DNA from: Candidatus Omnitrophota bacterium | Lineage (GTDB): Bacteria > Omnitrophota > Gorgyraeia > B26-G9 | Direction: 5' to 3' | Length of the DNA: 64,000 bases | NCBI GenBank assembly: GCA_043814605.1 | Contig: JBDRJV010000037.1 | Span: 163,902 to 227,901, forward strand | Shown here: piece after piece, positions 1-14,870 of the stretch | How the letters are laid out: each line of letters begins with the position of its first letter | Numbering within the stretch: the first letter of the stretch is position 1 | Notes under the pieces: model-generated | What the model was told of the DNA's origin: nothing | What the model saw: only the letters and a program-made list of their open reading frames with translations | Databases searched by the model: none | Program-made: the position numbers and the translations under genes

Positions 1-14
1 TACCCATTTTTTAT

Positions 15-515
15 TTGATGATAACTTTAGCTTTGTTTAACATTGAAAAAAAAATAATTCGTTTTATTTGTTCTATGCTCTTAGTATTTTTTATTGTATT
101 ATCACTTTCTATTTATTATTTTGATCAAAAAACATATAAAGATGACTGGAGATACCTTACCAGCTATGTTTTGAAGGATTTGACTGCCGATGATTACATA
201 TTGTTTCAGGGAGAATATGCGCATGTTCCTTTTCGCTATTACACAAAATTATTAAAAAAGAATAATAAAAATTTAGCGCAGAATAAAATTTATAGTAATA
301 CCCTGCAAAGCGCAGACGGATCTTTAGAGAGATTTTTAGCCGATAAAGATAAAGGGGAATTAAAAAATAAAAAGCGAATATGGCTGATTAGTTATTATGC
401 TCTTGAAGAAGAGAATCAGAGGCTTAAAACTTATTTCGATGGTCAATATAATTGTGTAGAAAAAAATACAAATTTGGGCAGAAATTTAAGCCTGTTGTTG
501 TATACAGCTAAATAA
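15..515 (+). CDS. hypothetical protein; the reading frame is open to base 1, so this may be the 3' part of a longer gene that starts upstream of the window
   Basis: ORF of 166 aa with one N-terminal hydrophobic segment. No motif recognised. No upstream stop in frame. Confidence 0.3.
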   Translation: MMITLALFNIEKKIIRFICSMLLVFFIVLSLSIYYFDQKTYKDDWRYLTSYVLKDLTADDYILFQGEYAHVPFRYYTKLLKKNNKNLAQNKIYSNTLQSADGSLERFLADKDKGELKNKKRIWLISYYALEEENQRLKTYFDGQYNCVEKNTNLGRNLSLLLYTAK

Positions 516-581
516 TTAAATTATTTTTTAACCGGGGTTATTAATCTCCGGTGAATATGTGCAAGTGAAAGGTAAAATATA

Positions 582-1634
582 ATGATCAAAAAAACAGAGA
601 AAATTCTATCTTTTATCCGTTGGCAGGATTGGGGGCCGGGAAAAATCCCGGTATTTTGTACTTTGCTGGCTTATATCGGAATTGCCAGCCGTAATGTTTC
701 TAACCTTTTTACGGTTAAATTTATTTTATTTCTTTTCTTTGCTTCCGTTCATTCAGCATCAGGTTATATCATTAATGACTGGGGAGATCGAAAAATTGAT
801 AAATTACATGGTAAATCAAATGCTTTTGAAGGGTTGAGTTATTTTAAAAGCTGTTTGATTTTATTTTTGTTATTTATGATTGCGTTTATTTCCGGGCTTC
901 CGTTTGTGCATAAGGCATTTTTTATCCCCTTATGGATTGCCTGGGCTGTTTTTACCGTAGGTTATTCTCTTAAACCCTTACGTCTTAAAGAACGGGGGAT
1001 AGTCGGACTGGGTGTTTCGGCTCTAGCCCAATGGACGCTGCCGATATTAATTGTTTTTTCGGCGATGGGGCGGTTTGGACATTGGGATATGATTGTTTTT
1101 GCCATTGTAAATTCGATCAGTGGAGCTACACTAGAAATTGCGCATCAACGCCATGATCGCAGTCATGATCTGGGAACTCAAACTAAAACATTTGGGGCAG
1201 TAACAGAAAATAGAACATTAGATTACCTTTATGCGATAGCTGTATTTTTTGATAAAATTGCTGTTTGTGCTGTTTTGATTACTATTCTGATCGGGATTAC
1301 TCCTTTGGACTGGACTTCCGGTTGGAATAAACTTGCTCATCCCTTGATGATTATTTATTTAATTTTATTTTTTATCTCTTTAATCGAAACGATTCGTGCT
1401 TCGAAAAATAACCAGGTTTTTGATCCATATTATTCAACAGCACGCAGTGCTAATAAATTTTTACATGAAACAATGCCTAATCTCATAATTCCTTCTTATT
1501 TATTACTGATTGTAACTATTTATCATCCCACTAATGGAATTTTACTAGGGATTTTTCTCTATTGGCGTTTGGTAATCGGTAAAGCTGATTGGAAATGGCC
1601 ATTACGAATGATTAAGAAATTATGGAAAGGATAA
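582..1634 (+). CDS. UbiA-family integral-membrane prenyltransferase
   Basis: Polytopic membrane protein. It has the Asp-rich motif NDWGDRKID (NDxxDxxxD) and a later DRSHD (DxxxD), which are the two signature motifs of UbiA prenyltransferases. Confidence 0.6.
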   Translation: MIKKTEKILSFIRWQDWGPGKIPVFCTLLAYIGIASRNVSNLFTVKFILFLFFASVHSASGYIINDWGDRKIDKLHGKSNAFEGLSYFKSCLILFLLFMIAFISGLPFVHKAFFIPLWIAWAVFTVGYSLKPLRLKERGIVGLGVSALAQWTLPILIVFSAMGRFGHWDMIVFAIVNSISGATLEIAHQRHDRSHDLGTQTKTFGAVTENRTLDYLYAIAVFFDKIAVCAVLITILIGITPLDWTSGWNKLAHPLMIIYLILFFISLIETIRASKNNQVFDPYYSTARSANKFLHETMPNLIIPSYLLLIVTIYHPTNGILLGIFLYWRLVIGKADWKWPLRMIKKLWKG

Positions 1635-4261
1635 ATATTAGTCAGGTTCATATGGAATTTAAGCAGAATAGATATATTAAATGGTTAAAGAATGCGACAA
1701 TAAATGATTTTGCATCTATGGGTGCAAAAGCAACAAATTTATCAATTTTAATGCAGACGGGATTTCCCATTCCCGATGCTTTTTGTATTAACACAGACGC
1801 TTTTAAAGATTTTATCACAAGCCTGGACATTATGAACGGGGATAAAGAAAATAATCAGCTAAGTAAAAAAATTTTATCAGCACCGATTCCTCCAGAAATA
1901 AGAACGGTGATTTTAGGAGCATATCAGCTTTTGAAACAAAAATCCGGGGATAAAATTCTTGTTGCGGTACGGTCTTCTGCTTTAGATGAAGACTGTGCCC
2001 AAGCTTCATATGCGGGCCAATATAATTCTATTTTGAATGTCAAGTCCGAAGATGAGCTGATCAATGCACTGAGACAATGTTGGAGTTCTTATTTTTCATC
2101 GCGAGTACAGGCTTACCGAGTTCAAATATCTAAACAAAATGATTTGGCCATGGCAGTTATTGTTCAATTAATGATTTCCTCAGAACTTTCCGGGGTAGTT
2201 TTTACGGTTAATCCGCTGGACAAAAATGATCAATGTTTATCTATAGAAATGGCCAGAGGTCTGGGGGATAAACTTGTTTCCGGAGAAAAAACAGGGGATC
2301 ATTTACTTGTGAATAAACGCACTTTAAAAATTGTATCGATAAATAAAGAGCGTAAACATCTAAATTTAAACTTTTCTCAAAATATTAAAAATTTTGATTT
2401 AAACCCTTTATTTAAATTAGCGGTTAAAATTGAAAAGCGCATGAAGTCGCCTCAAGATATTGAGTGGGCCTATGTAAAAGAAAAATTCTGGGTTTTACAA
2501 TCAAGGCCGATAACCTATTCAGCGCAATTAAATAATAGAGAAATCTGGACTCGTGCAAATGCTGGGGAAATTCTGCCGGATGTGGTTACGCCGCTTACTT
2601 GGTCAGTTTTTAAACCAGTTTTAAAATTAGCAGGATTTTTTATGAGCCGGTCCATGTTGACTCTGCACTGGAATTGGAAACATGCGCATGATAAATTTCC
2701 TGATTCTCCCCAATTATTCAATGGTAAGGCTTATATGGAATTAACAAGCGTGTATGCTGGATTTGCTAGTTTTCCCGGCATTACTGCGGACATTTTACAT
2801 AAAATGCTTGGTTTTGAATTTAATCTATTATCGAAAAAAGAACTGCCGCTTCGGTCTCCCCGTTGGCAGATAATGGATATTTATCGGGGGATATGCTATT
2901 GGCTGGAAATTTTAAATATTACTAATTCCCTGGCTTGCAGATCAAGGCGGTTTATTAATAAAGAAAGTTCTGATATAAAAAATTATAAAAAGGATGCTAA
3001 AGAGTTATTGGAAGCAATTAGGGTATTATTGTCAGATACTGCTTTAGTGCTGGGATTGCATGTTCAATCTACGGCAATGACTTTTAGTGCATTTGGATTA
3101 ATCGATGCTTTAGTAAAGAAGATTGTTGATTACCAGACAACGCAGTTATTTGAATCGGCTTTAATCTCAGACTTTAATTCTATTAGCACAGTGCAGCAGA
3201 ATATTGCAATTTGGGAACTGGCGCAGAAGATTAAAAACAATGCGATAATTAAAAAAGCGGTTTTTGAAAAGCCTACAATGAAAGAAGTATTAAATTCTTT
3301 GCAAATGAATCCCGCGGCACGTGATATTGTTAAACTTTGGGAGGAATTTATTGCTCAATTTGGAGAACGCAGTACACAAGAATTTGAACTAGCAGTTGCT
3401 CATTGGAATGAGAATGCAGATTTTATTTTACAGACAATCAGGGATATTATTGCCTCGGATACTCAAAACCCGCGTGAAAAATTACAGCAGCAACAGCTTA
3501 TTTGTAATGATGTTATCCAGAAGACAAGGCTGCAGATAAAAGAAAAATGCTCATATCTAGATTCATGGTGTTTTAGCCGGTTATTAGAGTTTTATAAGAA
3601 AGGAATACCTTTAAGGGAAAATCTCAAATATTGTGTGGTTACAAAGTTTAATTTACTGCGGAGAATATTCCTGGAATTAGGAGTGATTTTGAAAAATAAA
3701 TCCTTACTTTTAGATCCAAATGATATTTTTTTTCTGGAACATGAAGAAGTGCGGCAGGTTTTTGACAACTTGTCTGATTCAGTGATGGACATTAACTCTT
3801 TAGTGATCCTGCGAAAAAAACAATACAATCAGAACAAAAACAGTTTTCATGCTGACCTTTTTTTCTTACAAAATGGACAAGTGGTTCCAGTGGCAACACA
3901 TCTAGGGGAAGCAGAGAATATTTTATGTGGTATTGGGTGTAGCCATGGCCAGTTTACCGGGCCGGCGTATGTGCTTAATTCAGTATTAGAGAATGTTGAG
4001 GTTTCTTCAGGACACATCTTAGTTGCGCCTTCGATTGATCCCGGGTTAACGCCTCTTTTTCTTACAGCTTGTGGGTTAGTGACGGAAGTTGGAGGGATGC
4101 TCTCTCATGGAGCAACAGTTGCACGTGAATATGGGTTACCGGCAGTTGTGGGAGTTTCTGGTGCGACGAAACTTATTAAAACCGGACAGATTATAACTGT
4201 TGATGGAGTTACGGGAAGAGTTTATTTGGAAGTAGATAAGAGAGGGGTTAGTCATAAATGA
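1622..4261 (+). CDS. PEP-utilising enzyme family phosphotransferase (PPDK N-terminal PEP/pyruvate-binding domain plus C-terminal mobile His domain; PpsA/rifampin-phosphotransferase-like)
   Basis: N-terminal GAKATNLSILMQTGFPIPDAFCINTDAF matches the PPDK_N ATP-grasp consensus. C-terminal GGMLSHGATVAREYGLPAVVGV matches the PEP-utilizers mobile-domain consensus. It overlaps the upstream gene by 13 bp and the downstream gene by 4 bp. Confidence 0.75.
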   Translation: MERINISQVHMEFKQNRYIKWLKNATINDFASMGAKATNLSILMQTGFPIPDAFCINTDAFKDFITSLDIMNGDKENNQLSKKILSAPIPPEIRTVILGAYQLLKQKSGDKILVAVRSSALDEDCAQASYAGQYNSILNVKSEDELINALRQCWSSYFSSRVQAYRVQISKQNDLAMAVIVQLMISSELSGVVFTVNPLDKNDQCLSIEMARGLGDKLVSGEKTGDHLLVNKRTLKIVSINKERKHLNLNFSQNIKNFDLNPLFKLAVKIEKRMKSPQDIEWAYVKEKFWVLQSRPITYSAQLNNREIWTRANAGEILPDVVTPLTWSVFKPVLKLAGFFMSRSMLTLHWNWKHAHDKFPDSPQLFNGKAYMELTSVYAGFASFPGITADILHKMLGFEFNLLSKKELPLRSPRWQIMDIYRGICYWLEILNITNSLACRSRRFINKESSDIKNYKKDAKELLEAIRVLLSDTALVLGLHVQSTAMTFSAFGLIDALVKKIVDYQTTQLFESALISDFNSISTVQQNIAIWELAQKIKNNAIIKKAVFEKPTMKEVLNSLQMNPAARDIVKLWEEFIAQFGERSTQEFELAVAHWNENADFILQTIRDIIASDTQNPREKLQQQQLICNDVIQKTRLQIKEKCSYLDSWCFSRLLEFYKKGIPLRENLKYCVVTKFNLLRRIFLELGVILKNKSLLLDPNDIFFLEHEEVRQVFDNLSDSVMDINSLVILRKKQYNQNKNSFHADLFFLQNGQVVPVATHLGEAENILCGIGCSHGQFTGPAYVLNSVLENVEVSSGHILVAPSIDPGLTPLFLTACGLVTEVGGMLSHGATVAREYGLPAVVGVSGATKLIKTGQIITVDGVTGRVYLEVDKRGVSHK

Positions 4262-5472
4262 AAAAGACGGATATCGTTATTGTCGGAGGTGGCATGGCGG
4301 GGCTGTCTGCTGCGGTAATGCTTTGTGAAAATTCAAAGTTTAATGTAACGCTTATTGAGAAAAGCGGTATTGGCACCAATGAAACAACCAGAGCTGTTTT
4401 TGCCGAGGTAATAAAAGAGTTTAGACTTAAAGAAAGTGTGCTGAGAAACTACTCGCGGTATGTTTTTCATAGTGCATTAGGAGCTCAAGCTACTTTTGAT
4501 TATAAAAAAAACGCCATGGTGGCAATTGATTATAAAAAAGCCTGTAACCAATTATTTGAAAGAGCTGTGCAGCATGGTTTAATTTTACTTAAGCAAAAAG
4601 CGATTAATTTTTCTTCTTCATCACCAGATTCTCCTTTAGTGCTCCATTTGGATAATAGCGAAACGATACAAACGGAAATATTGATAGATGCTTCAGGGGT
4701 TGCGCAATGGGCGGCTCAATGTTTGCATATTCCGGTATCACGGTATTATAGTGTGAGTTTTGGTGAACTTTTAGAAAATTGTCAAATTGAAGATATCCAA
4801 GCATTTCGGTTATTGGCACCGTACAGCCGCTACGGAAATGGGGGTGGATGGGCATACCCCCTAACCAATAAAACTATTAGTTTCGGATATTCTATTGTAA
4901 CCGAAAAGCTGGATGCTGATGAGGCTAGTTTAAAAAAAGGATATTTCGAAGCAAAATCTAAATTCGAGCCCTATGCAACATGGATGGGTAATGCGGTAAA
5001 AATAAAAGAAGAAGCCGGCATTATTCCTGTCGGACGTATCGGGCGATTTATTGATGAACGTGTTTTAATTATCGGGGATGCTGCCGGACAAGCAAATCCC
5101 TGGGCTATAGAAGGATGCCGTCCGGCTCTTTTAAACGGGCGTTTGGCAGCAGAAGTAGTGATAGAGGCTTTTGCTAAAAACAAATTTAATCGTTCATTTC
5201 TGATGTTGTTTGAGCGGAAATGGAGCCGTAATAATCGAGAACGCTTTTGGCGTACCGAAAGTTCTGCGGACATTACCTGGTTTAAGACATCGGATGTTCA
5301 GTGGGATAAAATAGTAACTTTACAGAAACGTGTTGCTCCGGAAGTACAGTTTGAATATTTAAAGGAAAACAGAGCCTCATTTTTAATAACTGCTTATGCC
5401 GTTGCGGGTTTTATGCGGCGGGTTTTAGTAAAAAAAATAAAATGCGTTTTAAAAAAAATATGGAAGAGATAA
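4258..5472 (+). CDS. FAD-dependent oxidoreductase, geranylgeranyl reductase family
   Basis: N-terminal dinucleotide fold IVIVGGGMAGLSAA. The motif VLIIGDAAGQANPWAIEGCRPALLNGRLAAE aligns to the GGR/ChlP C-terminal signature. Length 404 aa. Confidence 0.65.
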   Translation: MKKTDIVIVGGGMAGLSAAVMLCENSKFNVTLIEKSGIGTNETTRAVFAEVIKEFRLKESVLRNYSRYVFHSALGAQATFDYKKNAMVAIDYKKACNQLFERAVQHGLILLKQKAINFSSSSPDSPLVLHLDNSETIQTEILIDASGVAQWAAQCLHIPVSRYYSVSFGELLENCQIEDIQAFRLLAPYSRYGNGGGWAYPLTNKTISFGYSIVTEKLDADEASLKKGYFEAKSKFEPYATWMGNAVKIKEEAGIIPVGRIGRFIDERVLIIGDAAGQANPWAIEGCRPALLNGRLAAEVVIEAFAKNKFNRSFLMLFERKWSRNNRERFWRTESSADITWFKTSDVQWDKIVTLQKRVAPEVQFEYLKENRASFLITAYAVAGFMRRVLVKKIKCVLKKIWKR

Positions 5473-5488
5473 TTAATTTTTTGATTGG

Positions 5489-6805
5489 ATGGTTATAAAA
5501 ATGGGAAAAGAAGTTAGCCAGAAACGTGCATTGTTTTTGCCGGGATATTTCGGTAATGGATTTGGCCATGTAGGCAGGTGTTTGGCATTGGCGGATGAAA
5601 TGAAAAAAGAAAACTGGAAAGTGGGTATGGTTTTAGCAGGGCGTTATTGTAAATTAGTAAAAGAGAATGGATATGATCTGTTCTCTCCCATATTTCCGAA
5701 AAGACCAAGCACAAAATTTAGTGATCAGAATACTCCAGCATTTACTTATATAAAAGATGGGAGCGGTCAAGTCCTCAGAGATGGATTAACAAGCCTTTGG
5801 AAAATAAAAGCAGCAGTAGCAGAGTTAATGTTAATCGTTAAAAAATTCCGTCCGAATGTACTAATCGGCGATATTTCCTTATTAACCTGGATATTAGGTA
5901 AAAAAGTAAATTTACCGGTAGTACAGATAATTCGTTCGATTATGTATCCGGGGCGATCTAAAATAATCTGGTGGCAGGATCCGCCGCAGGGCATGGAGTC
6001 TCCGAATATAGCAGCGGTTTTTAATCCGCTGCTGGAAAAATGGAAAATTTCCGCAATAAAAAGTGTAGACTATTTATTACAAGGTGATTTATATCTTGTC
6101 CCGAGTATCCCGGAACTGGAGCCATTACCGGATAATGTAATAAATACGCATTATGTGGGAGCGATGGTATATAAACAAAAATTTAAAAATAATTTACCCG
6201 AGCCCTTATTAAACGATAATCAGAAACAAAAGGTGTATATTACAATGGGGGGCGGTGCGGGCGGAGTTGGGAATCTGAAGTTTTTTGAAATTATTCATAA
6301 AGCTTTTTCCCAAACTCCCTGGACGACAATTGTATCTACCGGTAAAAATTTCAATCCTAAAGATATCCCGGAATTATCAAAGAATATTTATTACTCTCAA
6401 TGGGTTCCTGGCCCAGAAGTGATCAAACGGTCCGATTTAGTAATTTTCCCGGGGGGATACGGAACAATGATGGAGACCATAAAATTTGGGGTGCCGAGTA
6501 TTATTGTCCCTTTCCACAGTGAACAGGAATCTAATGGACGTCGGATTGCAGAGAATAATGCAGGGTGCTTATTAAGTTCTGCGGAAAAAAGTGATCGGGA
6601 TACACTTATCCCTTACAAATGTAAATACGGGAAATTTGTCGGATGTATCAGGAAAGAATTTAATTTAAAACCACATGTTTTAAATGACTCCGCGGAAAAT
6701 ATTTTAAAAAACTGTGAATATAAAAAAGCGGCAATGCGCTTAAGTTCCTTAGTAAATAAATTTAATAGGGAAAAAGCAGTAGAGTTAATTAAAAAAATGG
6801 TTTAA
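5489..6805 (+). CDS. GT1-family (MGT/UDP-glycosyltransferase-like) glycosyltransferase
   Basis: C-terminal PGGYGTMMETIKFGVPSIIVPFHSEQESNGRRI matches the GT1 donor-binding signature (HGGxGT ... DQxxNA-like). Confidence 0.6.
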   Translation: MVIKMGKEVSQKRALFLPGYFGNGFGHVGRCLALADEMKKENWKVGMVLAGRYCKLVKENGYDLFSPIFPKRPSTKFSDQNTPAFTYIKDGSGQVLRDGLTSLWKIKAAVAELMLIVKKFRPNVLIGDISLLTWILGKKVNLPVVQIIRSIMYPGRSKIIWWQDPPQGMESPNIAAVFNPLLEKWKISAIKSVDYLLQGDLYLVPSIPELEPLPDNVINTHYVGAMVYKQKFKNNLPEPLLNDNQKQKVYITMGGGAGGVGNLKFFEIIHKAFSQTPWTTIVSTGKNFNPKDIPELSKNIYYSQWVPGPEVIKRSDLVIFPGGYGTMMETIKFGVPSIIVPFHSEQESNGRRIAENNAGCLLSSAEKSDRDTLIPYKCKYGKFVGCIRKEFNLKPHVLNDSAENILKNCEYKKAAMRLSSLVNKFNREKAVELIKKMV

Positions 6806-6828
6806 TAAATTATAAAAAAAGGTTAATT

Positions 6829-8292
6829 GTGAAGATTACACTTATTTCTTTTGATGAAGAGTTATATTGTTTAGGGATAAGGATACTATCTTCCTGCTTG
6901 CGGCAAGCCGGGCATGAGGTACAATTAATTTTTTTACCGCCCATAACTAATCCTAAAGAGAAAAAGTTCATATTCAAATACACAAAAGATTTACTAAGAG
7001 CTCTTTTGCAACAATGTAAAGGCTCAGATATTCTGGGCATGTCTCTAATGACAAATCAGTTTATTTTAGCTATGGAGGTGACAAAATTTTTAAAAAATAA
7101 TCACATAACCGCACCAATTATCTGGGGGGGTATTGAGCCGACAGTTGAACCAGAAGAATGTATAAAAATAGCAGATATTGTTTGTATCGGTGAGGCAGAA
7201 GCGGCAATAGTAGAATTAGCTGGAAGGATAGAACAAGGAAAGAGTTTTTTAGATGTTAAAAATTTCTGGTTTAAAGATAAGGGTAATATTATCCGTAATG
7301 AAGTAAGACCACTTGAACAAAATTTAGATAAGCTGTCTTTTCCAGATTATAGTTGTGAAGATCATTTTCTGGGTTATGGAAATACTATGGAATCATTAAC
7401 AAAGGAAAAATTGATTAATTTTCCGGGAGAAAGATTTTCGGCAAAGAATGGCAAAATACGTTATCCGGTGATGACAAGCAGAGGTTGCCCTTTTGCCTGT
7501 ACATATTGTTGTAATAGTGTCTATCGGAAAATCTACCCAGGCCAAAAACTGTTAAGATGGAGAACTCAGGAACATGTCATTAAAGAACTGTGTATGGTCA
7601 GGGATAAACTTGCGCGATTAGACATGGTTTTTTTTGTGGATGATAATTTTACGGGCAGGGCAAATATTGATTTACAAGAATTTTGTTCAAACTATGCCAA
7701 GCATATCGGAGTGCCGTTTTTCGCTCAAGTAAGTCCGTTAACGGTTGACAAAGAAAAGCTGGAGATTTTGTTTAAATATGGATGCATCAAAATTACAATG
7801 GGTGTTGAAACGGGAAGCGAACGAGTTGCCGCGATGTATAACCGTAAACATTTTCATAAAGCTGTGCCGGGAGCGATTAAATTTATTGAAGAATATCGTC
7901 CGCAAATGAGTTTACCGCCGACATATCAGTTTATTATCGATAACCCTTTTGAATCACAAGAGGAAACATTAAAAACTCTTCACTTAGCAATAAGTTTGCC
8001 GCGCCCCTGGAATAATCCGATTTATTCTTTAATGCTTTTTCCCGGGACTGAGTTATATGACAAAGCAGTTCAAGCGCAGATGATCAGAGATAAGTATAAC
8101 CAAATTTATGCAAAAAACTGGGTAGAACAAAGTAACCCATACTTGCAATTATGGATTAAACTTTATCGAAATAACTTTCCCCGAATTTTCTTGCACTTTT
8201 TGATTATTCCTTTAATCGTTAAATTAGGGATGAGTAAACCGGTGAGTGCAGTTTTACGTATGAAGATTCTTAAAAAATGGATTTGTATTTAA
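6829..8292 (+). CDS. B12-binding radical SAM enzyme (class B rSAM)
   Basis: GTG start. N-terminal Rossmann-like B12-binding region. CxxxCxxC radical-SAM motif in SRGCPFACTYCCNS. Confidence 0.75.
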   Translation: MKITLISFDEELYCLGIRILSSCLRQAGHEVQLIFLPPITNPKEKKFIFKYTKDLLRALLQQCKGSDILGMSLMTNQFILAMEVTKFLKNNHITAPIIWGGIEPTVEPEECIKIADIVCIGEAEAAIVELAGRIEQGKSFLDVKNFWFKDKGNIIRNEVRPLEQNLDKLSFPDYSCEDHFLGYGNTMESLTKEKLINFPGERFSAKNGKIRYPVMTSRGCPFACTYCCNSVYRKIYPGQKLLRWRTQEHVIKELCMVRDKLARLDMVFFVDDNFTGRANIDLQEFCSNYAKHIGVPFFAQVSPLTVDKEKLEILFKYGCIKITMGVETGSERVAAMYNRKHFHKAVPGAIKFIEEYRPQMSLPPTYQFIIDNPFESQEETLKTLHLAISLPRPWNNPIYSLMLFPGTELYDKAVQAQMIRDKYNQIYAKNWVEQSNPYLQLWIKLYRNNFPRIFLHFLIIPLIVKLGMSKPVSAVLRMKILKKWICI

Positions 8293-8354
8293 ATTATTTT
8301 TACCGGATTGTTAAAATTATATATTTTTAGAAAATCAGTAAAGGAATCAAGAAA

Positions 8355-9887
8355 ATGGAATTGAATCCCGAACAAAGTAATAATGCTGCCAATAATAGCC
8401 ACTTTTCCCAGGAGGTAGTTAAGGGAGGTATTTGGGTTTTTATGGCGCGAGTTTTTAACCAAGGACTCGCTTTGCTGAAGCTGATAATTTTAGCTCGGAT
8501 ATTAACGCCTGCGGATTTTGGAATTATGGGTATTGCGCTTTTGATTATCGCCACAGCAGAACGCTTTTCTCAAACAGGCTTACAGCAAGCGCTGATTCAA
8601 AAGCCAAAACAAATTAAAGATGATCTGGATACTGCCTGGACAATTTTGATTATTAGGGGGATTGTTTTATCTTTGATCATATTTTTTATAGCCCCCCTTG
8701 TGGTAAAATTTTTTAAAATAGAACAAGCCAGCGGGATTATCCAAATCATTGGGTTTTCAATTCTTTTACAAGCTTTTAATAATATCGGTATTGTGTTTTT
8801 TTATAAACAACTAGATTTTAAAAAGCAGTTCATCTATCAAGTTGGCGGAGATTTTACGGAATTTATTGTGGCAGTAATTCTAGCGTTTAAGTTGCGCAGT
8901 GTCTGGGCGTTGGTCTTAGGGCTTTTAGCCGGCAGGTTTGCCGCCCTTATTTTAAGCTATGCAATACAATCTTACCGGCCAAAACTTAGCTTGCGATTTG
9001 ATAAAATTAAAAAATTACTGGGATTTGGAAAATGGGTTACCGGATCAAATATTGGTGTTTTTATCGGGGGATTTTTAGATAATATTATTGTGGGAAAATT
9101 GTTAGGTGCGGCATCTTTAGGATACTATCGCATGGCGTATCGGATTTCAAATATGCCGGCAACTGAAATTAGTTATGTTATTAGTCAGGTTACTTTTCCA
9201 GCCTATGCGAAAATACAACATGACAATCTGCAATTGAAGAAAATGTATTTAAGAATATTGCGGCTGACATTGGTGGTTTGTCTGCCTGTGGTAATTATGA
9301 TTGGATTGCTTTCTTCTGATTTCACAATGGTCTTTTTAGGTTTAAAATGGCGTCCGATGATCCCGGCAATGCAGTTATTAGCTTTTGCCGGTTTAATGAA
9401 ATCAATTGTTTCAACCGGCAGCCCTTTGTTTGTGGGCAGCGGTAATCCTAAATTTGAATTTCATATGCAAACTGTGAGAGCTTTAGCAATGATAATTCTG
9501 ATTATTCCGCTGACCCTTAGGTTTAATATTTCCGGGGCAGCTTTAACCGTAATTTTCAGTATGATTGCGATGTTTATTGTTTGGTATTATTGTACCGGTC
9601 AGATAGTCAAGATAACCGGAAAACAGTATTTTAAAATTTTGAAATATCCGCTAATTGGGGGATTATTAATGAGCGGGATGATCAGCCTGAGTTTGAAATT
9701 GCTGGGTTTAACTGAAAAATCATTGTTTTTTGGAGGAATGCTTTTATGTTGTGTGGTTGTCTTGGGGGTGATTGCTTATTTAGGGGGTATATATTTATGG
9801 CAAATTAAGTGTCATGATTTTGAGCTTAATCAGGATTTTAAATTTATTTTTTGTACAGTAATTAAAAGGAAATCAGGAAGTTTATGA
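8355..9887 (+). CDS. oligosaccharide/polysaccharide flippase (Wzx-like, MOP superfamily)
   Basis: Twelve or more predicted TM helices. Overall resemblance to the polysaccharide biosynthesis protein family. Confidence 0.6.
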   Translation: MELNPEQSNNAANNSHFSQEVVKGGIWVFMARVFNQGLALLKLIILARILTPADFGIMGIALLIIATAERFSQTGLQQALIQKPKQIKDDLDTAWTILIIRGIVLSLIIFFIAPLVVKFFKIEQASGIIQIIGFSILLQAFNNIGIVFFYKQLDFKKQFIYQVGGDFTEFIVAVILAFKLRSVWALVLGLLAGRFAALILSYAIQSYRPKLSLRFDKIKKLLGFGKWVTGSNIGVFIGGFLDNIIVGKLLGAASLGYYRMAYRISNMPATEISYVISQVTFPAYAKIQHDNLQLKKMYLRILRLTLVVCLPVVIMIGLLSSDFTMVFLGLKWRPMIPAMQLLAFAGLMKSIVSTGSPLFVGSGNPKFEFHMQTVRALAMIILIIPLTLRFNISGAALTVIFSMIAMFIVWYYCTGQIVKITGKQYFKILKYPLIGGLLMSGMISLSLKLLGLTEKSLFFGGMLLCCVVVLGVIAYLGGIYLWQIKCHDFELNQDFKFIFCTVIKRKSGSL

Positions 9888-11782
9888 TTAATGCAATAGC
9901 CGGATATATAAATAGTATTGAGAAAATTTCCAATACTTTGTTAGAAAAAATGGCCCAAACCATAAAGCACTCTCCGAATATTAATATGGATACTTGGCAG
10001 GATCAGGTGTTGGCGATTTCACAAGCCAGCTATAAAACTGCAAAATCATTTAATGCCCCGATATTTAATGCAAACAATACTCTTAAACTCGTGATGGTGG
10101 GGGAAATTTTTGATTATGAGAAACAGAAGTTAGAACTTATTCAGCGGGGTTATAAATTTAAATTTCCCGATAGTGCGGCTGAATTTTGCTTACATCTTTA
10201 CGAAGAAAAGGGCAATGCTGCGTTTTGCCAACTAAATGGATCGTTTGGCTTAGCGATTTATAATACAAAAACAAGTGAATTTTTATTAGTGAGTGATCGT
10301 TTTTCTTCGCAGCCTATTTTTTATCATCTAACTAATAAAAAAACATTATTATTTGGATCTCAGGTAGCTTCTATCTTAAAGTCCAATGAGGTTTCGCGGG
10401 AATTAGATAGAGAAGCGGTTTTTGAATATTTTACTTTTCTGCAGGTTTTTGGGACTAAAACGTTCTGCAAAAATATAAAAATGCTTGAACCGGCAACAAT
10501 ACTGACTTACATTAATGGAAAGATTTCTTTTTCACAATACTGGAGTTTTAAATATCAGGAAAAATGTGGTTCCGAACAATATTATGTGGAAAGATTAGCA
10601 AAAACCATAAAAACAGCTGTGCAAAGAAGAACACAGGGGAATGACCGCTTGGGGTTGTTATTAAGCGGAGGATTAGATTCGAGGATTATCTTGGCAGCTG
10701 CGGATAAGGAGATGGTCTGCTTTACCGTCGGAGATTTTGAGAATCGAGAGGTTAAAACGGCAAAAAAAATTTGTCAAGCTAAGGGATGCAAGCATATTTT
10801 TCTAAAACGAGATGTTGACCACTATGTAAATCTTTGGGAAAAAGCTGTAGATATTGGCGATAGTTTGTATTGTTTTACGCATGCTTACGCAATTGGTTTT
10901 TTCGAACAAATTACCAGGGAATGTGATGTTGTATTTCATGGCTATGCACTGGAGCGATTTTTTAGAGGAACAATGTTGGCTCAGAAAAAATTTTCTTTAT
11001 TCGGTACCACTATTTTTAATTGGCTGGATAATCTTAAAGGGAGTTGTCTGGCGCGGCAAATTTTAAGTAAATTCAAAACTAGTTTTTATGCGCTAGATCC
11101 AGCGCAGCTTTTTTCTCAGAAAAATTATGATGTATTTGATAAAATTTTATTAGAATCAATCAAGAAAATTACCGATGAATCAGAAAATAATTGTGATCAT
11201 AAACAGGATCAATTCCTTTGGGCGAATACACGTTATCCCCAAGGCTTTGCTTTCCTGAATGTTTCTTCGATCAGAGCATTTATGAATGAACGCAGTATTA
11301 TTTTTGACAATGACCTTATCGATCTTCATCTGGAAATGCCGCTTAAGTATCGAGCCAATAGCAGGATTTGGAAAAAAGTTATTGCTCAATTGAATTCTAA
11401 AATTGCGAGTGTTCCTAATTCAAACCAAGGATTGAAAATATGGCAAAAGGCAGTGAATAAATTATTTTTTAGAAAACCGGAAAAATTGCCGGCTCCGATA
11501 TTTACCCAAGGATCGTGGCCAAACTTTTTGTTATTTATCCGTTATCATAAAAAGATGCGCGATTTAATAGAAAAGATAATAAAAGATCAGGAGAACATTT
11601 CGCCGGATATTTTTAATTTACAAAAAATTGACCAAGTATATAAGGAATACATGAATGGGAAAAATGAATATTCAATATTGTTATATCTTTTACTTACATT
11701 TGGAACATGGTATAAAAAACATGGACTAAAAATATTTTCTAACAATTTAAAGCAGGATGGGAGTAAAGTAAATGAAGAATGA
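9884..11782 (+). CDS. asparagine synthase-like PP-loop amidotransferase (AsnB family) lacking the N-terminal Cys nucleophile
   Basis: PP-loop LLSGGLDSRII. AsnB-like length and architecture. The N-terminus is MINAIAGY with no Cys at position 2. Confidence 0.65.
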   Translation: MINAIAGYINSIEKISNTLLEKMAQTIKHSPNINMDTWQDQVLAISQASYKTAKSFNAPIFNANNTLKLVMVGEIFDYEKQKLELIQRGYKFKFPDSAAEFCLHLYEEKGNAAFCQLNGSFGLAIYNTKTSEFLLVSDRFSSQPIFYHLTNKKTLLFGSQVASILKSNEVSRELDREAVFEYFTFLQVFGTKTFCKNIKMLEPATILTYINGKISFSQYWSFKYQEKCGSEQYYVERLAKTIKTAVQRRTQGNDRLGLLLSGGLDSRIILAAADKEMVCFTVGDFENREVKTAKKICQAKGCKHIFLKRDVDHYVNLWEKAVDIGDSLYCFTHAYAIGFFEQITRECDVVFHGYALERFFRGTMLAQKKFSLFGTTIFNWLDNLKGSCLARQILSKFKTSFYALDPAQLFSQKNYDVFDKILLESIKKITDESENNCDHKQDQFLWANTRYPQGFAFLNVSSIRAFMNERSIIFDNDLIDLHLEMPLKYRANSRIWKKVIAQLNSKIASVPNSNQGLKIWQKAVNKLFFRKPEKLPAPIFTQGSWPNFLLFIRYHKKMRDLIEKIIKDQENISPDIFNLQKIDQVYKEYMNGKNEYSILLYLLLTFGTWYKKHGLKIFSNNLKQDGSKVNEE

Positions 11783-13634
11783 TGAATATAACCTTCTGGG
11801 AAACGTTAAAAGCATTAAAGATTTAAAAAAAATTAAAAAAAGCGAATTACCGGTATTGGCACAGGAAATACGTCAGTTTATTATTGAGAATGTTGCCAAG
11901 ACCGGCGGGCATCTGGGAGCTTCTTTAGGTGCTGTAGAATTAACCGTAGCGTTGCATTATTTTTTTAACAGCCCCAAGGATAAAATTATCTGGGATGTGG
12001 GGCATCAAGCGTATGCGCATAAGATTTTAACCGGGAGGAAGGATTTATTTTCTACACTGCGTCAAAAAGCAGGGATCAGTGGTTTTCCCCGTATCAATGA
12101 GAGTGAACATGATGCTTTTGGCACAGGGCATGCTTCTACTTCTCTATCTGCGGCATTAGGATTTGCTTGTGCCCGTGATTTAAAAAAAGAGAATCATGAA
12201 GTAATTGCGATTATCGGAGACGGAGCAATGACCGGAGGTAATGCATTGGAAGCAATTAATCAGGTGGGGTATCTTAATACTAAGCTGATTGTAATTCTTA
12301 ATGATAACCGGATGTCAATTTCTGAAAATGTGGGGGGATTATCTAAATATACGCATCGGATAGAACATACTGATGTTTACCAGCAGATAAAAGATACAAT
12401 GCATGAGTTGATTGAAAAAGGAAACGGATTAAGGGAAAAACTTTTAGAATTAAAAGCACACTTAAAAGAGGTTGGTTCTCCCGGATTGCTTTTTGAAAAA
12501 CTCGGATTTGATTATATTGGTCCGATTGACGGGCATGACATCAGGAGTATTTTAGAGGCTTTAAATACAGCAAAAAATACTAAGGCTCCGAGCTTAATTC
12601 ATTGCCGGACGATTAAGGGAAAAGGGTATACTCATGCGGAAAATGATAAGTCAAGATTTCATGGGATCAGTGCTTTTGATATTGATAGCGGGTGTAATAT
12701 TGATTGTCCGGGCCAATTAACATATACGCAGGTATTTAGTAATAGTTTAGTGGAATTAGCGCAAAAAGATGAAAAAATTGTGGCAATTACAGCGGCAATG
12801 CCAGATGGGACAGGGCTTACTGCATTTGCGCAAAAATTTCCCAAAAGATTTTTTGATGTGGGTATTGCTGAACAGCATGCAGTAGTTTTTGCCGCAGGAT
12901 TAGCATGTGCAGGGTTTAAACCTGTAGTAGCAATTTATTCTACTTTTTTACAAAGAGCTTATGATGCTATAATTCATGATGTGTGTTTACAAAAACTTCC
13001 GGTTATTTTTGCCATTGATCGGGCGGGTATTGTTGGTGAAGACGGAGCTACGCATCAGGGAGTATTTGATATTTCTTATTTAAGACATATCCCTGGAATT
13101 ACAATCCTTGCTCCTTCTAATAAGCAGGAATTAGTTCAAATGCTTGGGTTTGCTTTAAAATTAAAAAAACCAGTTGCTTTACGTTATCCTCGAGGATGTT
13201 GTGTTGAAATTAACAATAGAAAATTAACTGCCTTAGAATTGGGAAAATGTGAAATAATCTCAAAAGGGAATAATTTAACAATTGTGTCTATTGGCACAAT
13301 GTTGGAGCCGGCATTTTTGGCTGCCCAGGAACTTAAAAAACAAGGCATTTCGGTAACCTTAATTAATGCGCGGTTTGTAAAACCTTTAGATCCTGTGATT
13401 GCAGAAATTATAAATGAAACAGGAAAAGCGATTATTATTGAAGAAAATACTAAAAAAGGCGGCTTTGGTAGTGCAATCCTGGAATTATGCCAAGAAAATA
13501 GATTACAAGCAGATATTCGAATCTTAGGGGTTAAAGATGATTTTGTAGAGCATGCTTCACAAGAAATAGCGCATCAGGAACAGGCGCTTACAGCGGATGA
13601 AATAATAAAAATAGGGAAGAAATTATATGGGTAA
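11772..13634 (+). CDS. dxs: 1-deoxy-D-xylulose-5-phosphate synthase
   Basis: Strong match to the DXS N-terminus (GGHLGASLGAVELTVALHYFFNSP, DVGHQAYAHKILTGR). TPP-binding GDGAMTGG. Transketolase-like C-terminus. 620 aa. Confidence 0.9.
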   Translation: MKNDEYNLLGNVKSIKDLKKIKKSELPVLAQEIRQFIIENVAKTGGHLGASLGAVELTVALHYFFNSPKDKIIWDVGHQAYAHKILTGRKDLFSTLRQKAGISGFPRINESEHDAFGTGHASTSLSAALGFACARDLKKENHEVIAIIGDGAMTGGNALEAINQVGYLNTKLIVILNDNRMSISENVGGLSKYTHRIEHTDVYQQIKDTMHELIEKGNGLREKLLELKAHLKEVGSPGLLFEKLGFDYIGPIDGHDIRSILEALNTAKNTKAPSLIHCRTIKGKGYTHAENDKSRFHGISAFDIDSGCNIDCPGQLTYTQVFSNSLVELAQKDEKIVAITAAMPDGTGLTAFAQKFPKRFFDVGIAEQHAVVFAAGLACAGFKPVVAIYSTFLQRAYDAIIHDVCLQKLPVIFAIDRAGIVGEDGATHQGVFDISYLRHIPGITILAPSNKQELVQMLGFALKLKKPVALRYPRGCCVEINNRKLTALELGKCEIISKGNNLTIVSIGTMLEPAFLAAQELKKQGISVTLINARFVKPLDPVIAEIINETGKAIIIEENTKKGGFGSAILELCQENRLQADIRILGVKDDFVEHASQEIAHQEQALTADEIIKIGKKLYG

Positions 13635-14181: not shown

Positions 14182-14290
14182 ATAGTAATTTATGAGATTG
14201 ATGTTTGTTCTCTAACCAATTGAAAAATCAATCAGATTACTAGTATTCGGCTAAGTATTTTCTATAAAATCAGTCAAATTCCCGCCCCTA

Positions 14291-14854: not shown

Positions 14855-14870
14855 ACAAGAGGAGTAAATA

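What the first reader, a model, noticed from the sequence alone, without database searches (positions are those of the whole stretch)
582..8292. Translationally coupled UbiA prenyltransferase / PEP-utilising phosphotransferase / GGR-family reductase / GT1 / B12-radical-SAM block at the head of the polysaccharide locus
Five genes are packed with overlaps of 13 and 4 bp at the first two junctions and gaps of only 16-23 bp at the next two. Each family assignment rests on motifs visible in the sequence: NDxxDxxxD, the PEP-utilizers His domain, the GGR C-terminal block, the GT1 donor motif, and CxxxCxxC with a B12-binding N-terminus. A prenyl-transferring enzyme, a prenyl-saturating enzyme family, a phosphotransferase, a glycosyltransferase and a probable C-methylating or ring-forming rSAM suggest synthesis of a tailored isoprenoid lipid. 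The product could be a saturated or methylated polyprenyl-phosphate glycan carrier (dolichol-like) or an ether/glyco-isoprenoid membrane lipid, rather than ordinary sugar-chain assembly. A flippase, an AsnB-like enzyme and then dxs and idi follow directly. I cannot place this combination in a characterised pathway.
Basis: partly seen in the sequence, partly recalled or inferred. Interest (0 to 1): 0.7.

Follow-up and report, generated by a model that had tools for sequence, protein, structure and literature searches.

The report
Isoprenoid-lipid tailoring genes in glycan cassette
Five tightly packed genes in an uncultivated Omnitrophota bacterium are the right-hand part of a rare, uncharacterised gene cassette, shared by several phyla of anaerobes, that appears to attach and tailor a short isoprenoid lipid as part of building a cell-surface sugar polymer.

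Summary
The five ORFs, their junctions (-13, -4, +16, +23 bp) and all cited motifs are present. The block is not the head of the locus: window 3-515 is the C-terminus of a GT-C (PMT_2) glycosyltransferase cut by the window edge. In the closest relative, eight more genes precede it (GT2 x3, rSAM-SPASM, SDR, a 10-TM protein, methyltransferase, PMT_2).

The block is conserved. In 19 well-flanked loci from Omnitrophota, Anaerolineae/Chloroflexota, Syntrophorhabdus and unassigned metagenome contigs, the UbiA gene lies within 10 kb of the Rph-like dikinase (17/19), the GGR-fold flavoprotein (15/19), GT1 (13/19) and the B12-rSAM (6/19).

An isoprenoid reading has independent support. A short-chain FPP/GGPP-type synthase sits directly upstream of UbiA in eight loci. 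dxs recurs once, and true GGRs occur nearby. Natural fusions join flavoprotein+dikinase, CrtC-like hydratase+UbiA and UbiA+rSAM-SPASM.

None of the five proteins reaches any curated functional-family (NCBIfam) cut-off, and none falls in a housekeeping clade. No paper describing the cassette was found.

The best reading is a dedicated prenyl-lipid (glycolipid anchor or carrier) branch of a glycan-assembly cassette; the product is unknown. The main rival is a PRPP-using three-component pentofuranose system.

The parts
3..515 (+). C-terminal 170 aa of a PMT_2-type GT-C glycosyltransferase; the ORF is cut by the window's left edge
   Evidence: There is no stop codon from base 3. It is 53.5% identical to residues 390-559 of the 562-aa PMT_2 protein that precedes UbiA in L001, and 39% identical to the L004 PMT_2. 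The L001 protein scores 55 bits against Pfam PMT_2.
582..1634 (+). UbiA-superfamily intramembrane transferase (350 aa) of a small, uncharacterised clade
   Evidence: Pfam UbiA 56 bits. Motifs NDWGDRKID and DRSHD. AF2 model with pLDDT 89.6, all-helical. The nearest HMM families are ChlG/BchG and PRK12875, all far below their cut-offs. Only 145 of 1.84 billion 50%-identity cluster representatives match at E<=1e-30.
1622..4261 (+). Rifampin-phosphotransferase-like dikinase (879 aa): ATP-grasp, variable central domain and His swivel domain
   Evidence: PPDK_N plus PEP-utilizers. The precomputed Rph_4th domain is present. The best PDB matches are the three-domain enzymes 5hv1/5fbs, deposited as 'phosphoenolpyruvate synthase' (E 6e-67); I identify them from memory as Listeria rifampin phosphotransferase. 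H829 is present. All NCBIfam equivalogs (PpsA, Rph, PigC/RedH) are far below cut-off. The 13-bp overlap with UbiA is the same in L001.
4258..5472 (+). GGR-fold FAD protein ('FAD-X', 404 aa) without the canonical GGR Cys-Gly-Gly loop
   Evidence: In Foldseek, the top 7 PDB hits are all archaeal GGRs (3oz2: E 2e-25, TM 0.78). GG-red-SF scores 92 bits against a cut-off of 158.8. An alignment with the true GGRs of L002 and L026 shows the CGG loop replaced. It occurs fused to the dikinase in P0141.
5489..6805 (+). GT1 (GT-B) glycosyltransferase of the natural-product/aglycone type
   Evidence: Pfam and NCBIfam MGT subfamily 91 bits, below cut-off. The best PDB matches are YjiC, CalG2 and OleD. Orthologues at 37-52% identity follow the dikinase or flavoprotein in other loci.
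6829..8292 (+). B12-binding radical SAM enzyme (class B), subfamily unassigned
   Evidence: B12-binding 61 bits and Radical_SAM 62 bits. CPFACTYC motif. The best subfamily models (TIGR04013, HpnJ, ladderane rSAM) are all far below cut-off. Orthologues at 49-55% identity occur in L002, L022, L023, L026 and L043. The C-terminus is a hydrophobic/basic helix in all orthologues examined.
8355..9887 (+). MOP/Wzx flippase
   Evidence: Polysacc_synt_3 271 bits. A Wzx gene lies beside UbiA in most related loci, and one Wzx-UbiA fusion exists (P0359).
9884..11782 (+). AsnB-like amidotransferase, translationally coupled to its neighbours but not conserved with the block elsewhere
   Evidence: GATase_7 and Asn_synthase hits. 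The gene overlaps its neighbours by 4 and 11 bp. No orthologue lies next to the block in other loci.
11772..13634 (+). 1-deoxy-D-xylulose-5-phosphate synthase (dxs)
   Evidence: TIGR00204 817 bits against a cut-off of 466. A dxs gene (48% identity) also follows GT1 in L022.
13627..14181 (+). Type-1 isopentenyl-diphosphate isomerase (idi)
   Evidence: NF002995 160 bits against a cut-off of 127. The gene overlaps dxs by 8 bp, and a 689-bp gap follows it.

Best explanation
The five genes are the lipid-tailoring half of a conserved cassette of about 14 genes. The cassette couples transfer and modification of a short (probably C15-C20) isoprenoid chain to the assembly and export of a surface glycan.

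Proposed course, with the status of each step:
1. dxs and idi in this window, or an FPP/GGPP-type synthase next to UbiA in other lineages, raise the supply of prenyl diphosphate. The gene identities are shown; the role is inferred.
2. The membrane UbiA enzyme uses its two Asp-rich motifs to ionise a diphosphate donor and joins the prenyl group to a polar acceptor that is not identified. The superfamily is shown; the donor is inferred from context; the acceptor is unknown.
3. The GGR-fold flavoprotein acts on a C=C bond of that chain, most simply by reduction. The fold is shown; the chemistry is inferred and uncertain because the canonical Cys loop is missing.
4. The Rph-like dikinase passes the beta-phosphate of ATP through His829 to a hydroxyl of the same lipid. 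The architecture and the fusion to the flavoprotein are shown; the substrate is inferred.
5. The GT1 enzyme adds a sugar to the lipid aglycone (inferred).
6. The B12-radical SAM enzyme methylates or rearranges an unactivated carbon (inferred).
7. The resulting phospho- or glyco-isoprenoid serves as the anchor, primer or dedicated carrier on which the upstream GT2s build. Wzx flips it, and GT-C enzymes finish the glycan outside the membrane (inferred from gene content).
For: Conservation:
- UbiA, dikinase, flavoprotein, GT1 and B12-rSAM orthologues (29-74% identity) are clustered in Omnitrophota, Anaerolineae/Chloroflexota and unassigned contigs.
- In the 19 non-redundant loci that have large flanks and a UbiA at least 35% identical to a reference (the window's UbiA or that of L022), the counts are dikinase 17, flavoprotein 15, GT1 13 and B12-rSAM 6 (my tally from the per-locus table).

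Isoprenoid link:
- An FPP/GGPP-type synthase (NCBIfam FPPsyn 264 bits, CrtE 235 bits) lies immediately upstream of UbiA in L027-30, L033, L034, L043 and L057. It lies within 10 kb in L022 and L036. These loci include the UbiAs 58-62% identical to the window's, which only L001's (66%) and two contig-end fragments (63-64%) exceed.
- dxs follows GT1 again in L022.
- Canonical GGRs lie in L002, L026, L043 and L022.
- A CrtC-like carotenoid-1,2-hydratase domain is a neighbour in L002, L054 and L036, and is fused to UbiA in P0107, P0349 and P0373.

Functional coupling by fusion:
- Flavoprotein + dikinase (P0141).
- UbiA + rSAM-SPASM (P0365, P0412, P0342).
- Wzx + UbiA (P0359).

Family placement:
- All 28 UbiA family members match ChlG best (as low as 4e-13), while only 10 of 28 touch the DPPRS model.
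- The flavoprotein model's seven best PDB matches are all GGRs.
- The GT1 resembles aglycone GT1s.

Operon structure: the genes are tightly coupled from PMT_2 through idi.
Against: - No product, substrate or activity is known for any member. All evidence is homology, synteny and fusions.
- UbiA occurs with only the GT2/rSAM-SPASM/SDR/methyltransferase set, and without dikinase, flavoprotein or GT1, in L005 and L016. Its reaction therefore does not depend on the other four genes.
- UbiA sits beside a GT-C enzyme, a flippase and an SDR, which is exactly the context of PRPP-using polyprenyl-phosphoribose synthases (PMC11127046).
- The flavoprotein lacks the GGR Cys loop.
- No prenyl-diphosphate synthase lies in this window, and dxs/idi could simply be the organism's housekeeping copies.
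- The upstream half of the cassette is inferred for this genome from a 66%-identical relative, because the contig could not be fetched.
Confidence: 0.55

Rival explanations
1. This is a three-component pentofuranose system. The UbiA protein would be a polyprenyl-phosphoribose synthase that transfers ribose-5-P from PRPP to a polyprenyl phosphate. The SDR (possibly with the rSAM-SPASM) would epimerise the lipid-linked pentose, Wzx would flip it, and the PMT_2 GT-C would add it to a glycan. The dikinase, flavoprotein, GT1 and B12-rSAM would then be an accessory module.
Against: - The window protein has no DPPRS hit at E<=1, while all 28 family members match ChlG better.
- The family profile does not find 8j8j in the PDB at E<=10.
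- Foldseek ranks 8j8j 13th (E 0.046), behind DGGGP synthase and the archaeal UbiAs.
- Known PPPRSs share 31-34% identity with one another.
- No HAD or PAP2 5'-phosphatase appears in any locus.
- The model does not explain the adjacent FPP/GGPP synthase, the CrtC-like fusions, the GGRs or dxs/idi.
Confidence: 0.15
2. Two unrelated pathways lie side by side. UbiA would belong to the glycan module. The dikinase, flavoprotein, GT1 and B12-rSAM would make or modify a separate small molecule, such as a glycosylated, phosphorylated terpenoid or other secondary metabolite, or would inactivate one in the way Rph and macrolide GTs inactivate antibiotics.
For: The dikinase's best structural relative is the PDB enzyme 5hv1/5fbs, which I identify from memory as rifampin phosphotransferase, and the GT1's best family is the macrolide-type GTs. 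The four genes are missing from L005 and L016. About 30%-identical dikinases occur in unrelated contexts (L024).
Against: - The four genes were found next to a UbiA homologue in every long locus recovered through the dikinase's closer relatives (30-47% identity), even where that UbiA is only 30-36% identical (L022, L025, L026, L050, L054).
- The 13-bp and 4-bp overlaps with UbiA are conserved in L001.
- The order of the four genes relative to UbiA varies, but the linkage persists.
Confidence: 0.1
3. The genes make an archaeal-type ether membrane lipid or a C50-carotenoid-like pigment. In this reading UbiA acts as a DGGGP-synthase-like enzyme or a lycopene elongase, the flavoprotein as a GGR or lycopene cyclase, and GT1 as a CrtX-like enzyme.
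For: The best Foldseek hit for UbiA is DGGGP synthase (7bpu/6m31). The flavoprotein passes the Pfam Lycopene_cycl cut-off and has the GGR fold. CrtC-like hydratases are linked to the cassette.
Against: - No GGGP synthase, G1P dehydrogenase, CDP-archaeol synthase, phytoene synthase or bona fide phytoene desaturase appears in any of the loci. L022 has only a 336-aa oxidoreductase with faint, N-terminal-only CrtI/CrtD-family hits.
- The cassette always sits inside glycan loci with Wzx, GT2 and GT-C genes.
- The family is very rare: 145 representatives at E<=1e-30.
- The carriers are anaerobes in which a pigment is unlikely.
Confidence: 0.07
4. The genes are ordinary housekeeping genes (MenA/UbiA for quinones, PpsA for gluconeogenesis, a generic flavoprotein) that happen to be adjacent.
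For: Source annotations call homologues '4-hydroxybenzoate polyprenyltransferase' and 'pyruvate, water dikinase'.
Against: - The window's UbiA has no NCBIfam match to MenA or UbiA models, and only 1-2 of 28 family members touch those models.
- The dikinase lacks the PEP/pyruvate domain and scores 254 bits against 740 for PpsA.
- The genes are conserved as a cluster across phyla.
Confidence: 0.02

Closest known systems
Three-component extracytoplasmic pentofuranose glycosylation (PPPRS + flippase + GT-C +/- epimerase; Kelly et al. 2024, PMC11127046) and the mycobacterial DPPRS/DprE1-E2/Emb-Aft pathway
   Same: A UbiA-superfamily membrane enzyme is encoded beside a flippase, a GT-C glycosyltransferase and an SDR inside a polysaccharide locus. 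The NDxxDxxxD motif is shared.
   Different: The UbiA here is not in the DPPRS/PPPRS sequence family, and no 5'-phosphatase is present. The GT-C is PMT_2-type rather than GT136 or Emb. The cassette also carries an FPP/GGPP synthase, GGR-fold enzymes, CrtC-like hydratases, an Rph-like dikinase, a GT1 and a B12-rSAM, none of which belong to the known system.
Chlorophyll synthase ChlG/BchG with geranylgeranyl reductase ChlP/BchP
   Same: ChlG/BchG is the nearest HMM family of the UbiA protein, and BchP-ChlP is the second-best family of the flavoprotein. Both cases pair a UbiA enzyme that attaches a C20 prenyl group with a GGR-fold enzyme.
   Different: Scores are far below the cut-offs (26 vs 313 bits; 70 vs 343 bits). 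There are no tetrapyrrole genes, the organisms are non-phototrophic anaerobes, and the flavoprotein lacks the GGR Cys loop.
Archaeal isoprenoid lipid and dolichol-phosphate glycosylation enzymes (DGGGP synthase, GGR, AglJ/AglG/AglP/AglR/AglS-type Agl pathway)
   Same: The best Foldseek hit of UbiA is DGGGP synthase, and the flavoprotein model superposes on archaeal GGRs. The upstream GT2s match AglJ, Dol-P-hexose transferase and AglG best. The cassette also has a methyltransferase, a Wzx-like flippase and a GT-C that uses lipid-P-sugar donors.
   Different: All matches are distant and below cut-offs. The cassette is bacterial and has no GGGP synthase or oligosaccharyltransferase. No dolichol kinase homologue is present; the only kinase is of the Rph/PEP-utilising type.
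Rifampin phosphotransferase (Rph) / PigC-RedH / Cj1418 glutamine kinase family of three-domain dikinases
   Same: The proteins share the ATP-grasp + variable substrate domain + His swivel domain architecture and the catalytic histidine. They lack the PEP/pyruvate TIM barrel.
   Different: The score is 297 bits against a cut-off of 999 for Rph, and the central domain is not alignable. The gene is always linked, and sometimes fused, to a GGR-fold flavoprotein, which is not known for any characterised member.
Moenomycin-type phosphoglycolipid biosynthesis (my own knowledge; not tested here)
   Same: The inventory is similar by analogy: a prenyl transfer to a small polar acceptor, a phosphate, glycosyltransferases, an AsnB-like amidotransferase and a B12-radical SAM methyltransferase.
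   Different: The prenyltransferases are not homologous: MoeO5 is a TIM-barrel enzyme and MoeN5 is IPPS-like, and neither is a UbiA. No other orthology was shown. The resemblance is a lead only.

Membership tests
UbiA superfamily (PF01040) | Pfam match above the gathering score | tested here: met
   56.2 bits against 34.2.
UbiA superfamily (PF01040) | Two Asp-rich motifs (NDxxDxxxD and DxxxD) in a polytopic all-helical membrane protein | tested here: met
Polyprenyl-phosphoribose synthase (DPPRS/PPPRS) three-component system | The UbiA protein belongs to the DPPRS/PPPRS sequence family (members share about 31-34% identity; NCBIfam NF008977/NF008978) | tested here: not met
   The window protein has no hit at E<=1, and only 10 of 28 relatives hit weakly. 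The family profile misses 8j8j in the PDB. Structural alignments show 10-12% identity.
Polyprenyl-phosphoribose synthase (DPPRS/PPPRS) three-component system | Adjacent flippase and GT-C glycosyltransferase, with an optional epimerase | tested here: met
   PMT_2 C-terminus at 3-515 and Wzx at 8355-9887. PMT_2, Wzx and an SDR lie next to UbiA in related loci.
Polyprenyl-phosphoribose synthase (DPPRS/PPPRS) three-component system | A HAD (PRP) or PAP2 5'-phosphatase, fused or adjacent | tested here: not met
   No such Pfam family appears on any called gene in L001-L006, L022, L025 or L026, or in the window.
Polyprenyl-phosphoribose synthase (DPPRS/PPPRS) three-component system | PRPP-dependent transfer of ribose-5-P to a polyprenyl phosphate | not testable with these tools
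   This requires the membrane assay of PMC11127046.
Rifampin phosphotransferase-type dikinase | ATP-grasp (PPDK_N) + Rph-type central domain + C-terminal His swivel domain, with no PEP/pyruvate TIM barrel | tested here: met
   PPDK_N at 32-307 and PEP-utilizers at 796-865. Rph_4th is precomputed. H829 is present. The best PDB matches are 5hv1/5fbs.
Rifampin phosphotransferase-type dikinase | Equivalog-level match to Rph, PigC/RedH or PpsA | tested here: not met
   Scores against cut-offs: 297 vs 999 (Rph), 358 vs 1300 (PigC), 371 vs 1350 (RedH), 254 vs 740 (PpsA).
Geranylgeranyl reductase (GGR) family | GGR fold | tested here: met
   The top 7 Foldseek hits are GGRs. 3oz2: E 2e-25, TM 0.78/0.79, rmsd 3.3 over 397 columns.
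Geranylgeranyl reductase (GGR) family | TIGR02032 GG-red-SF trusted cut-off | tested here: not met
   92.1 bits against 158.8.
Geranylgeranyl reductase (GGR) family | Cys-Gly-Gly loop near the flavin (the role of this Cys is from my own knowledge of the TaGGR/SaGGR structures) | tested here: not met
   In the alignment with the GGR_cat-positive proteins of L002 and L026 ('AVCGGM', 'KACGGM'), the window family has 'NETT--RAVF' / 'NxxT--PxTF' at that position.
Class B (cobalamin-binding) radical SAM enzymes | N-terminal B12-binding domain plus a radical SAM core with CxxxCxxC | tested here: met
   PF02310 61 bits and PF04055 62 bits. CPFACTYC at 220-227.
Class B (cobalamin-binding) radical SAM enzymes | Assignment to a characterised subfamily (HpnJ, HpnP/R, BchE, PhpK, ladderane rSAM, etc.) | tested here: not met
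   The best scores are 92 vs 251 (TIGR04013) and 90 vs 578 (HpnJ). The only PDB match is AprD4, at 34 bits.
GT1 (GT-B, UDPGT/MGT type) | C-terminal nucleotide-sugar binding domain signature | tested here: met
   Glyco_tran_28_C 39 bits, EryCIII-like_C 39 bits and UDPGT 28 bits, all above cut-off. PDB matches are YjiC, CalG and OleD. The sequence 'PGGYGTMMETIKFGVPSIIVPFHSEQESN' is present.

The most novel reading that the evidence does not exclude
The cassette makes a dedicated, non-undecaprenyl isoprenoid lipid phosphate or phosphoglycolipid on which a surface glycan is built. This would be a bacterial counterpart of the dolichol-phosphate idea, reached by a different route: an FPP/GGPP-derived chain, a UbiA-type transfer, modification by a GGR-fold enzyme, and phosphorylation by an Rph-family dikinase. 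The dikinase would then be a new class of lipid kinase. The fusions of flavoprotein to dikinase, and of UbiA to rSAM-SPASM and to CrtC-like hydratase, would mark consecutive steps on one lipid.
Probability: 0.2. Interest if true: 0.8.

Novelty: new variant of a known kind. Interest (0 to 1): 0.62.

Why it matters
Almost all bacterial surface glycans are thought to be built on undecaprenyl phosphate, with lipid anchors derived from fatty acids. This cassette occurs in Omnitrophota, Anaerolineae and other anaerobes known only from metagenomes, and it ties its own prenyl supply and prenyl-tailoring enzymes to glycan assembly. It would therefore point to an unrecognised class of isoprenoid glycolipid or carrier.

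It would also give the first physiological, non-resistance role for an Rph-type dikinase acting on a lipid. It defines a new UbiA clade and a new GGR-fold subfamily. The products could be environmental lipid biomarkers for these widespread sediment and groundwater lineages.

The gene set is small enough to test directly by heterologous expression and lipidomics.

Tried and rejected
**Attempts that gave nothing**
- Fetching the window's own contig, to see the genes upstream of base 1, failed twice. The exact-sequence look-ups for the UbiA protein and for P0001 returned nothing. The upstream half therefore rests on synteny with L001.
- A single-sequence PDB search with UbiA gave no hit. The family profile hit only chlorophyll synthase.
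- Promoter and terminator scans over 1-15500 were at or below shuffle expectation and were not used.
- Rfam found nothing in the window.
- Six literature searches found no description of this gene combination. The Lipocone paper mentions a different UbiA neighbourhood.

**Ideas rejected**
- My initial guess of a Bacteroidota origin, based on low GC and the 23S_rRNA_IVP genes, was wrong. The proteins are 100% identical to a Candidatus Omnitrophota MAG (MFH1460525-27).
- A hopanoid-side-chain analogy (HpnA, HpnB, HpnH and HpnJ appear among the weak hits) was considered. It was not adopted because HpnH is only about the 20th best match of the rSAM-SPASM and all scores are far below the cut-offs.
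- A MeOPN-type role for the dikinase, as a Cj1418-like glutamine kinase (my own knowledge), was considered. It was set aside because the dikinase is linked and fused to a GGR-fold flavoprotein, and the other MeOPN genes are absent.
- Verrucomicrobial dikinases of about 30% identity sit in unrelated glycoside-hydrolase contexts. They were not used as evidence.

Full report
**What is in the window**

The junctions are -13, -4, +16 and +23 bp.

Pfam and NCBIfam confirm each family:
- a UbiA-superfamily protein;
- a PPDK_N + PEP-utilizers (mobile His domain) protein that lacks the PEP/pyruvate TIM barrel;
- an FAD Rossmann protein whose best NCBIfam model is the GGR superfamily;
- a GT1;
- a B12-binding radical SAM enzyme.

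The cited motifs are all present: NDWGDRKID, DRSHD, CPFACTYC, and the swivel histidine H829 in GGMLSHGATVAREYGLPAV.

The same tight packing continues through Wzx (+62), the AsnB-like gene (-4), dxs (-11) and idi (-8). A 689-bp gap then precedes wza. dxs and idi pass their NCBIfam equivalog cut-offs.

The rest of the window is a large Wza/Wzc and Wzx/Wzy polysaccharide locus. The proteins are 100% identical to entries MFH1460525-27 of a Candidatus Omnitrophota MAG.

**The block is cut by the window edge**

The frame at 3-515 has no stop codon upstream, so it runs off the window. It is 53.5% identical to the C-terminal 170 residues of a 562-aa PMT_2 (GT-C) protein that directly precedes UbiA in the closest relative. 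That relative is L001, an Omnitrophota contig (JACQZH010000033) whose UbiA is 66% identical.

The gene order in L001 is: dTDP-sugar isomerase, GT2a, GT2b, rSAM-SPASM, SDR, a 10-TM protein, methyltransferase, GT2c, PMT_2, UbiA, dikinase, flavoprotein, then the contig end. UbiA and the dikinase overlap by the same 13 bp as in the window.

The five genes are therefore the right-hand part of a longer cassette, not the head of a locus. I could not fetch the window's own contig to see this directly. No orthologues of the upstream set lie elsewhere in the window.

**Conservation**

Loci came from three sources: exact-protein look-ups, a scan of GTDB species genomes (15 loci) and a scan of metagenomes (32 loci). 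Together they gave 45 non-redundant UbiA loci.

Named hosts are Omnitrophota, Anaerolineae/Chloroflexota, Syntrophorhabdus and a Bacteroidales bin. More distant UbiAs occur in PVC, Desulfatiglandales and Erginobacter bins.

In the 19 loci with large flanks and a UbiA at least 35% identical to a reference (the window's UbiA or that of L022), my tally from the per-locus table is:

| Partner gene | Loci (of 19) |
|---|---|
| Rph-like dikinase | 17 |
| GGR-fold flavoprotein | 15 |
| GT1 | 13 |
| B12-rSAM | 6 |

The GT2c/rSAM-SPASM/SDR/methyltransferase set is present in almost all of them. Two loci (L005 and L016) have UbiA with only that set. Gene order varies between lineages while the linkage persists, which argues for selection rather than shared ancestry of one arrangement.

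The family is rare: 145 of 1.84 billion 50%-identity cluster representatives match the UbiA profile at E<=1e-30.

The AsnB-like gene is not conserved with the block. dxs recurs once, in L022 at 48% identity directly after GT1.

**Evidence that the chemistry is isoprenoid**

1. A 290-aa trans-prenyl-diphosphate synthase of the short-chain type (FPPsyn 264 bits, CrtE-type GGPP synthase 235 bits) lies immediately upstream of UbiA in L027, L028, L029, L030, L033, L034, L043 and L057. It lies within 10 kb in L022 and L036. This group includes the UbiAs 58-62% identical to the window's, which only L001's (66%) and two contig-end fragments (63-64%) exceed.
2. dxs and idi are translationally coupled to the block here, and dxs recurs in L022.
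3. Besides the window-type flavoprotein, canonical GGRs (GGR_cat-positive, with the CGG loop) or further GGR-like proteins lie in L002, L026, L022 and L043.
4. A 385-aa neighbour in L002, L054 and L036 is a CrtC-like carotenoid-1,2-hydratase lipocalin. It scores 21.6 bits against a Pfam cut-off of 22.5, and BLASTP gives 5e-10 to the CrtC part of P0107. That domain is fused to UbiAs of this clade in P0107, P0349 and P0373.
5. All 28 aligned UbiA relatives match chlorophyll synthase ChlG best (as low as 4e-13). ChlG attaches a C20 prenyl group. Only 10 of 28 touch the DPPRS model.

**Other fusions that tie the parts together**

- Flavoprotein + dikinase in one 1249-aa protein, followed by a 52%-identical B12-rSAM and a Wzx (P0141/L023).
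- UbiA + rSAM-SPASM in both orders (P0365, P0412, P0342).
- Wzx + UbiA (P0359).
- UbiA + a P-loop protein that also occurs in the Anaerolineae cassettes (P0284).

**The individual proteins**

*Dikinase.* Its best solved relatives are 5hv1/5fbs (E 6e-67). They are deposited as 'phosphoenolpyruvate synthase'; I identify them from memory as the three-domain Listeria rifampin phosphotransferase. Only the ATP-grasp and His domains align. Every NCBIfam equivalog (Rph, PigC, RedH, PpsA) is far below its cut-off. It is a member of the Rph-type architecture with an unknown substrate.

*Flavoprotein.* The AF2 model has pLDDT 90. Its seven best PDB matches are all archaeal GGRs (3oz2: TM 0.78), four orders of magnitude in E-value ahead of halogenases and FixC. 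An alignment with the true GGRs of the same cassettes shows that the Cys-Gly-Gly loop is replaced, and the GGR superfamily cut-off is not reached. The family is small. The word-indexed search returned 46 relatives at E<=1e-10, and the last three of these, at 27% identity, lie outside the family. Two of the three carry the GGR_cat domain, and the one that is named comes from an archaeon.

*GT1.* It resembles aglycone-directed GT1s: YjiC, CalG and OleD.

*B12-rSAM.* It fits no characterised subfamily. It ends in a hydrophobic/basic helix in all orthologues examined.

*Upstream module (from L001).* GT2a matches AglJ, Dol-P-hexose transferase, ArnC and PpgS best. GT2c has two C-terminal transmembrane helices, as polyprenyl-phosphate glycosyltransferases do. 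PMT_2 matches a mycobacterial GT-C mannosyltransferase best.

**Best explanation and main rival**

The best explanation is that the cassette transfers and tailors a short isoprenoid chain, giving a phospho- or glyco-isoprenoid that is used as an anchor, primer or carrier in glycan assembly (confidence 0.55). Only the family memberships, the synteny and the fusions are shown. The donor, acceptor, order of steps and product are inferred.

The main rival is the three-component pentofuranose system of Kelly et al. 2024. Its gene context (UbiA-family PPPRS, flippase, GT-C, epimerase) matches the genes immediately around UbiA here. Against it:
- the UbiA clade is not in the DPPRS/PPPRS sequence family;
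- no 5'-phosphatase is present;
- it does not explain the prenyl synthase, hydratase fusions, GGRs or dxs/idi.

Housekeeping, carotenoid and archaeal-membrane-lipid readings are poorly supported.

**Novelty**

No paper describing this combination was found. All parts belong to known superfamilies and the general kind, isoprenoid-linked glycoconjugate biosynthesis, is known. The UbiA clade, the GGR-fold subfamily, the lipid-linked Rph-type dikinase and the cassette as a whole are uncharacterised. I therefore rate it a new variant of a known kind, of moderate to high interest, pending chemistry.

Noticed in passing
window 18001-18375, 20655-21029, 33009-33365: Three paralogous 'S23 ribosomal / 23S rRNA intervening sequence' four-helix-bundle genes are scattered between the sugar-nucleotide genes of the polysaccharide locus. 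They are 80-86% identical at the protein level. Their role there is unexplained.
   Followed up: partly
window 28079-29520: A 213-aa ORF with no family overlaps by 4 bp an AbiEii-type nucleotidyltransferase toxin gene (Pfam 95 bits). This looks like a type IV toxin-antitoxin pair sitting inside the polysaccharide locus.
   Followed up: no
window 9884-11782, 37387-39312, 50418-52289: Three AsnB-like glutamine amidotransferase paralogues lie in one locus. The first, which is coupled to Wzx and dxs, is the most divergent (Asn_synthase 60 bits, against 232 and 310 bits).
   Followed up: no
window 53671-58707: A 1678-aa protein carries He_PIG Ig, purple-acid-phosphatase N-terminal and fibronectin-III domains. 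It coincides with a local GC rise to 0.42, against about 0.33 elsewhere.
   Followed up: no
window 1-61000: Every non-nested ORF of 100 aa or more is on the + strand, and GC skew is positive in every 2-kb bin. None of the Pfam-annotated ORFs is an initiating phosphoglycosyltransferase (Bac_transf or Glycos_transf_4), although several ORFs have no family at all.
   Followed up: partly
L004 4530-7084; also L008 and L009: In the Anaerolineae versions of the cassette, a P-loop protein with weak HprK-related-kinase/AAA_33 similarity and an RtcB RNA-ligase homologue sit between the SDR and Wzx. The P-loop protein is also found fused to a UbiA of this clade (P0284). An RtcB gene in a glycan cassette is unexplained.
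   Followed up: partly
L004 14086-15612, L003 11061-12668, L006 11053-12606 and others: A roughly 510-aa protein with weak GH_cc/GH39 similarity (a hydrophobic N-terminal segment in two of the three examined) lies next to UbiA or the dikinase in most non-Omnitrophota cassettes. It is absent from the window and from L001.
   Followed up: partly
P0375, P0389 (relatives of the window's UbiA): Further fusions of this UbiA clade exist: one with a TPR + GT41 (O-GlcNAc-transferase-like) module and one with a cytochrome P450.
   Followed up: no
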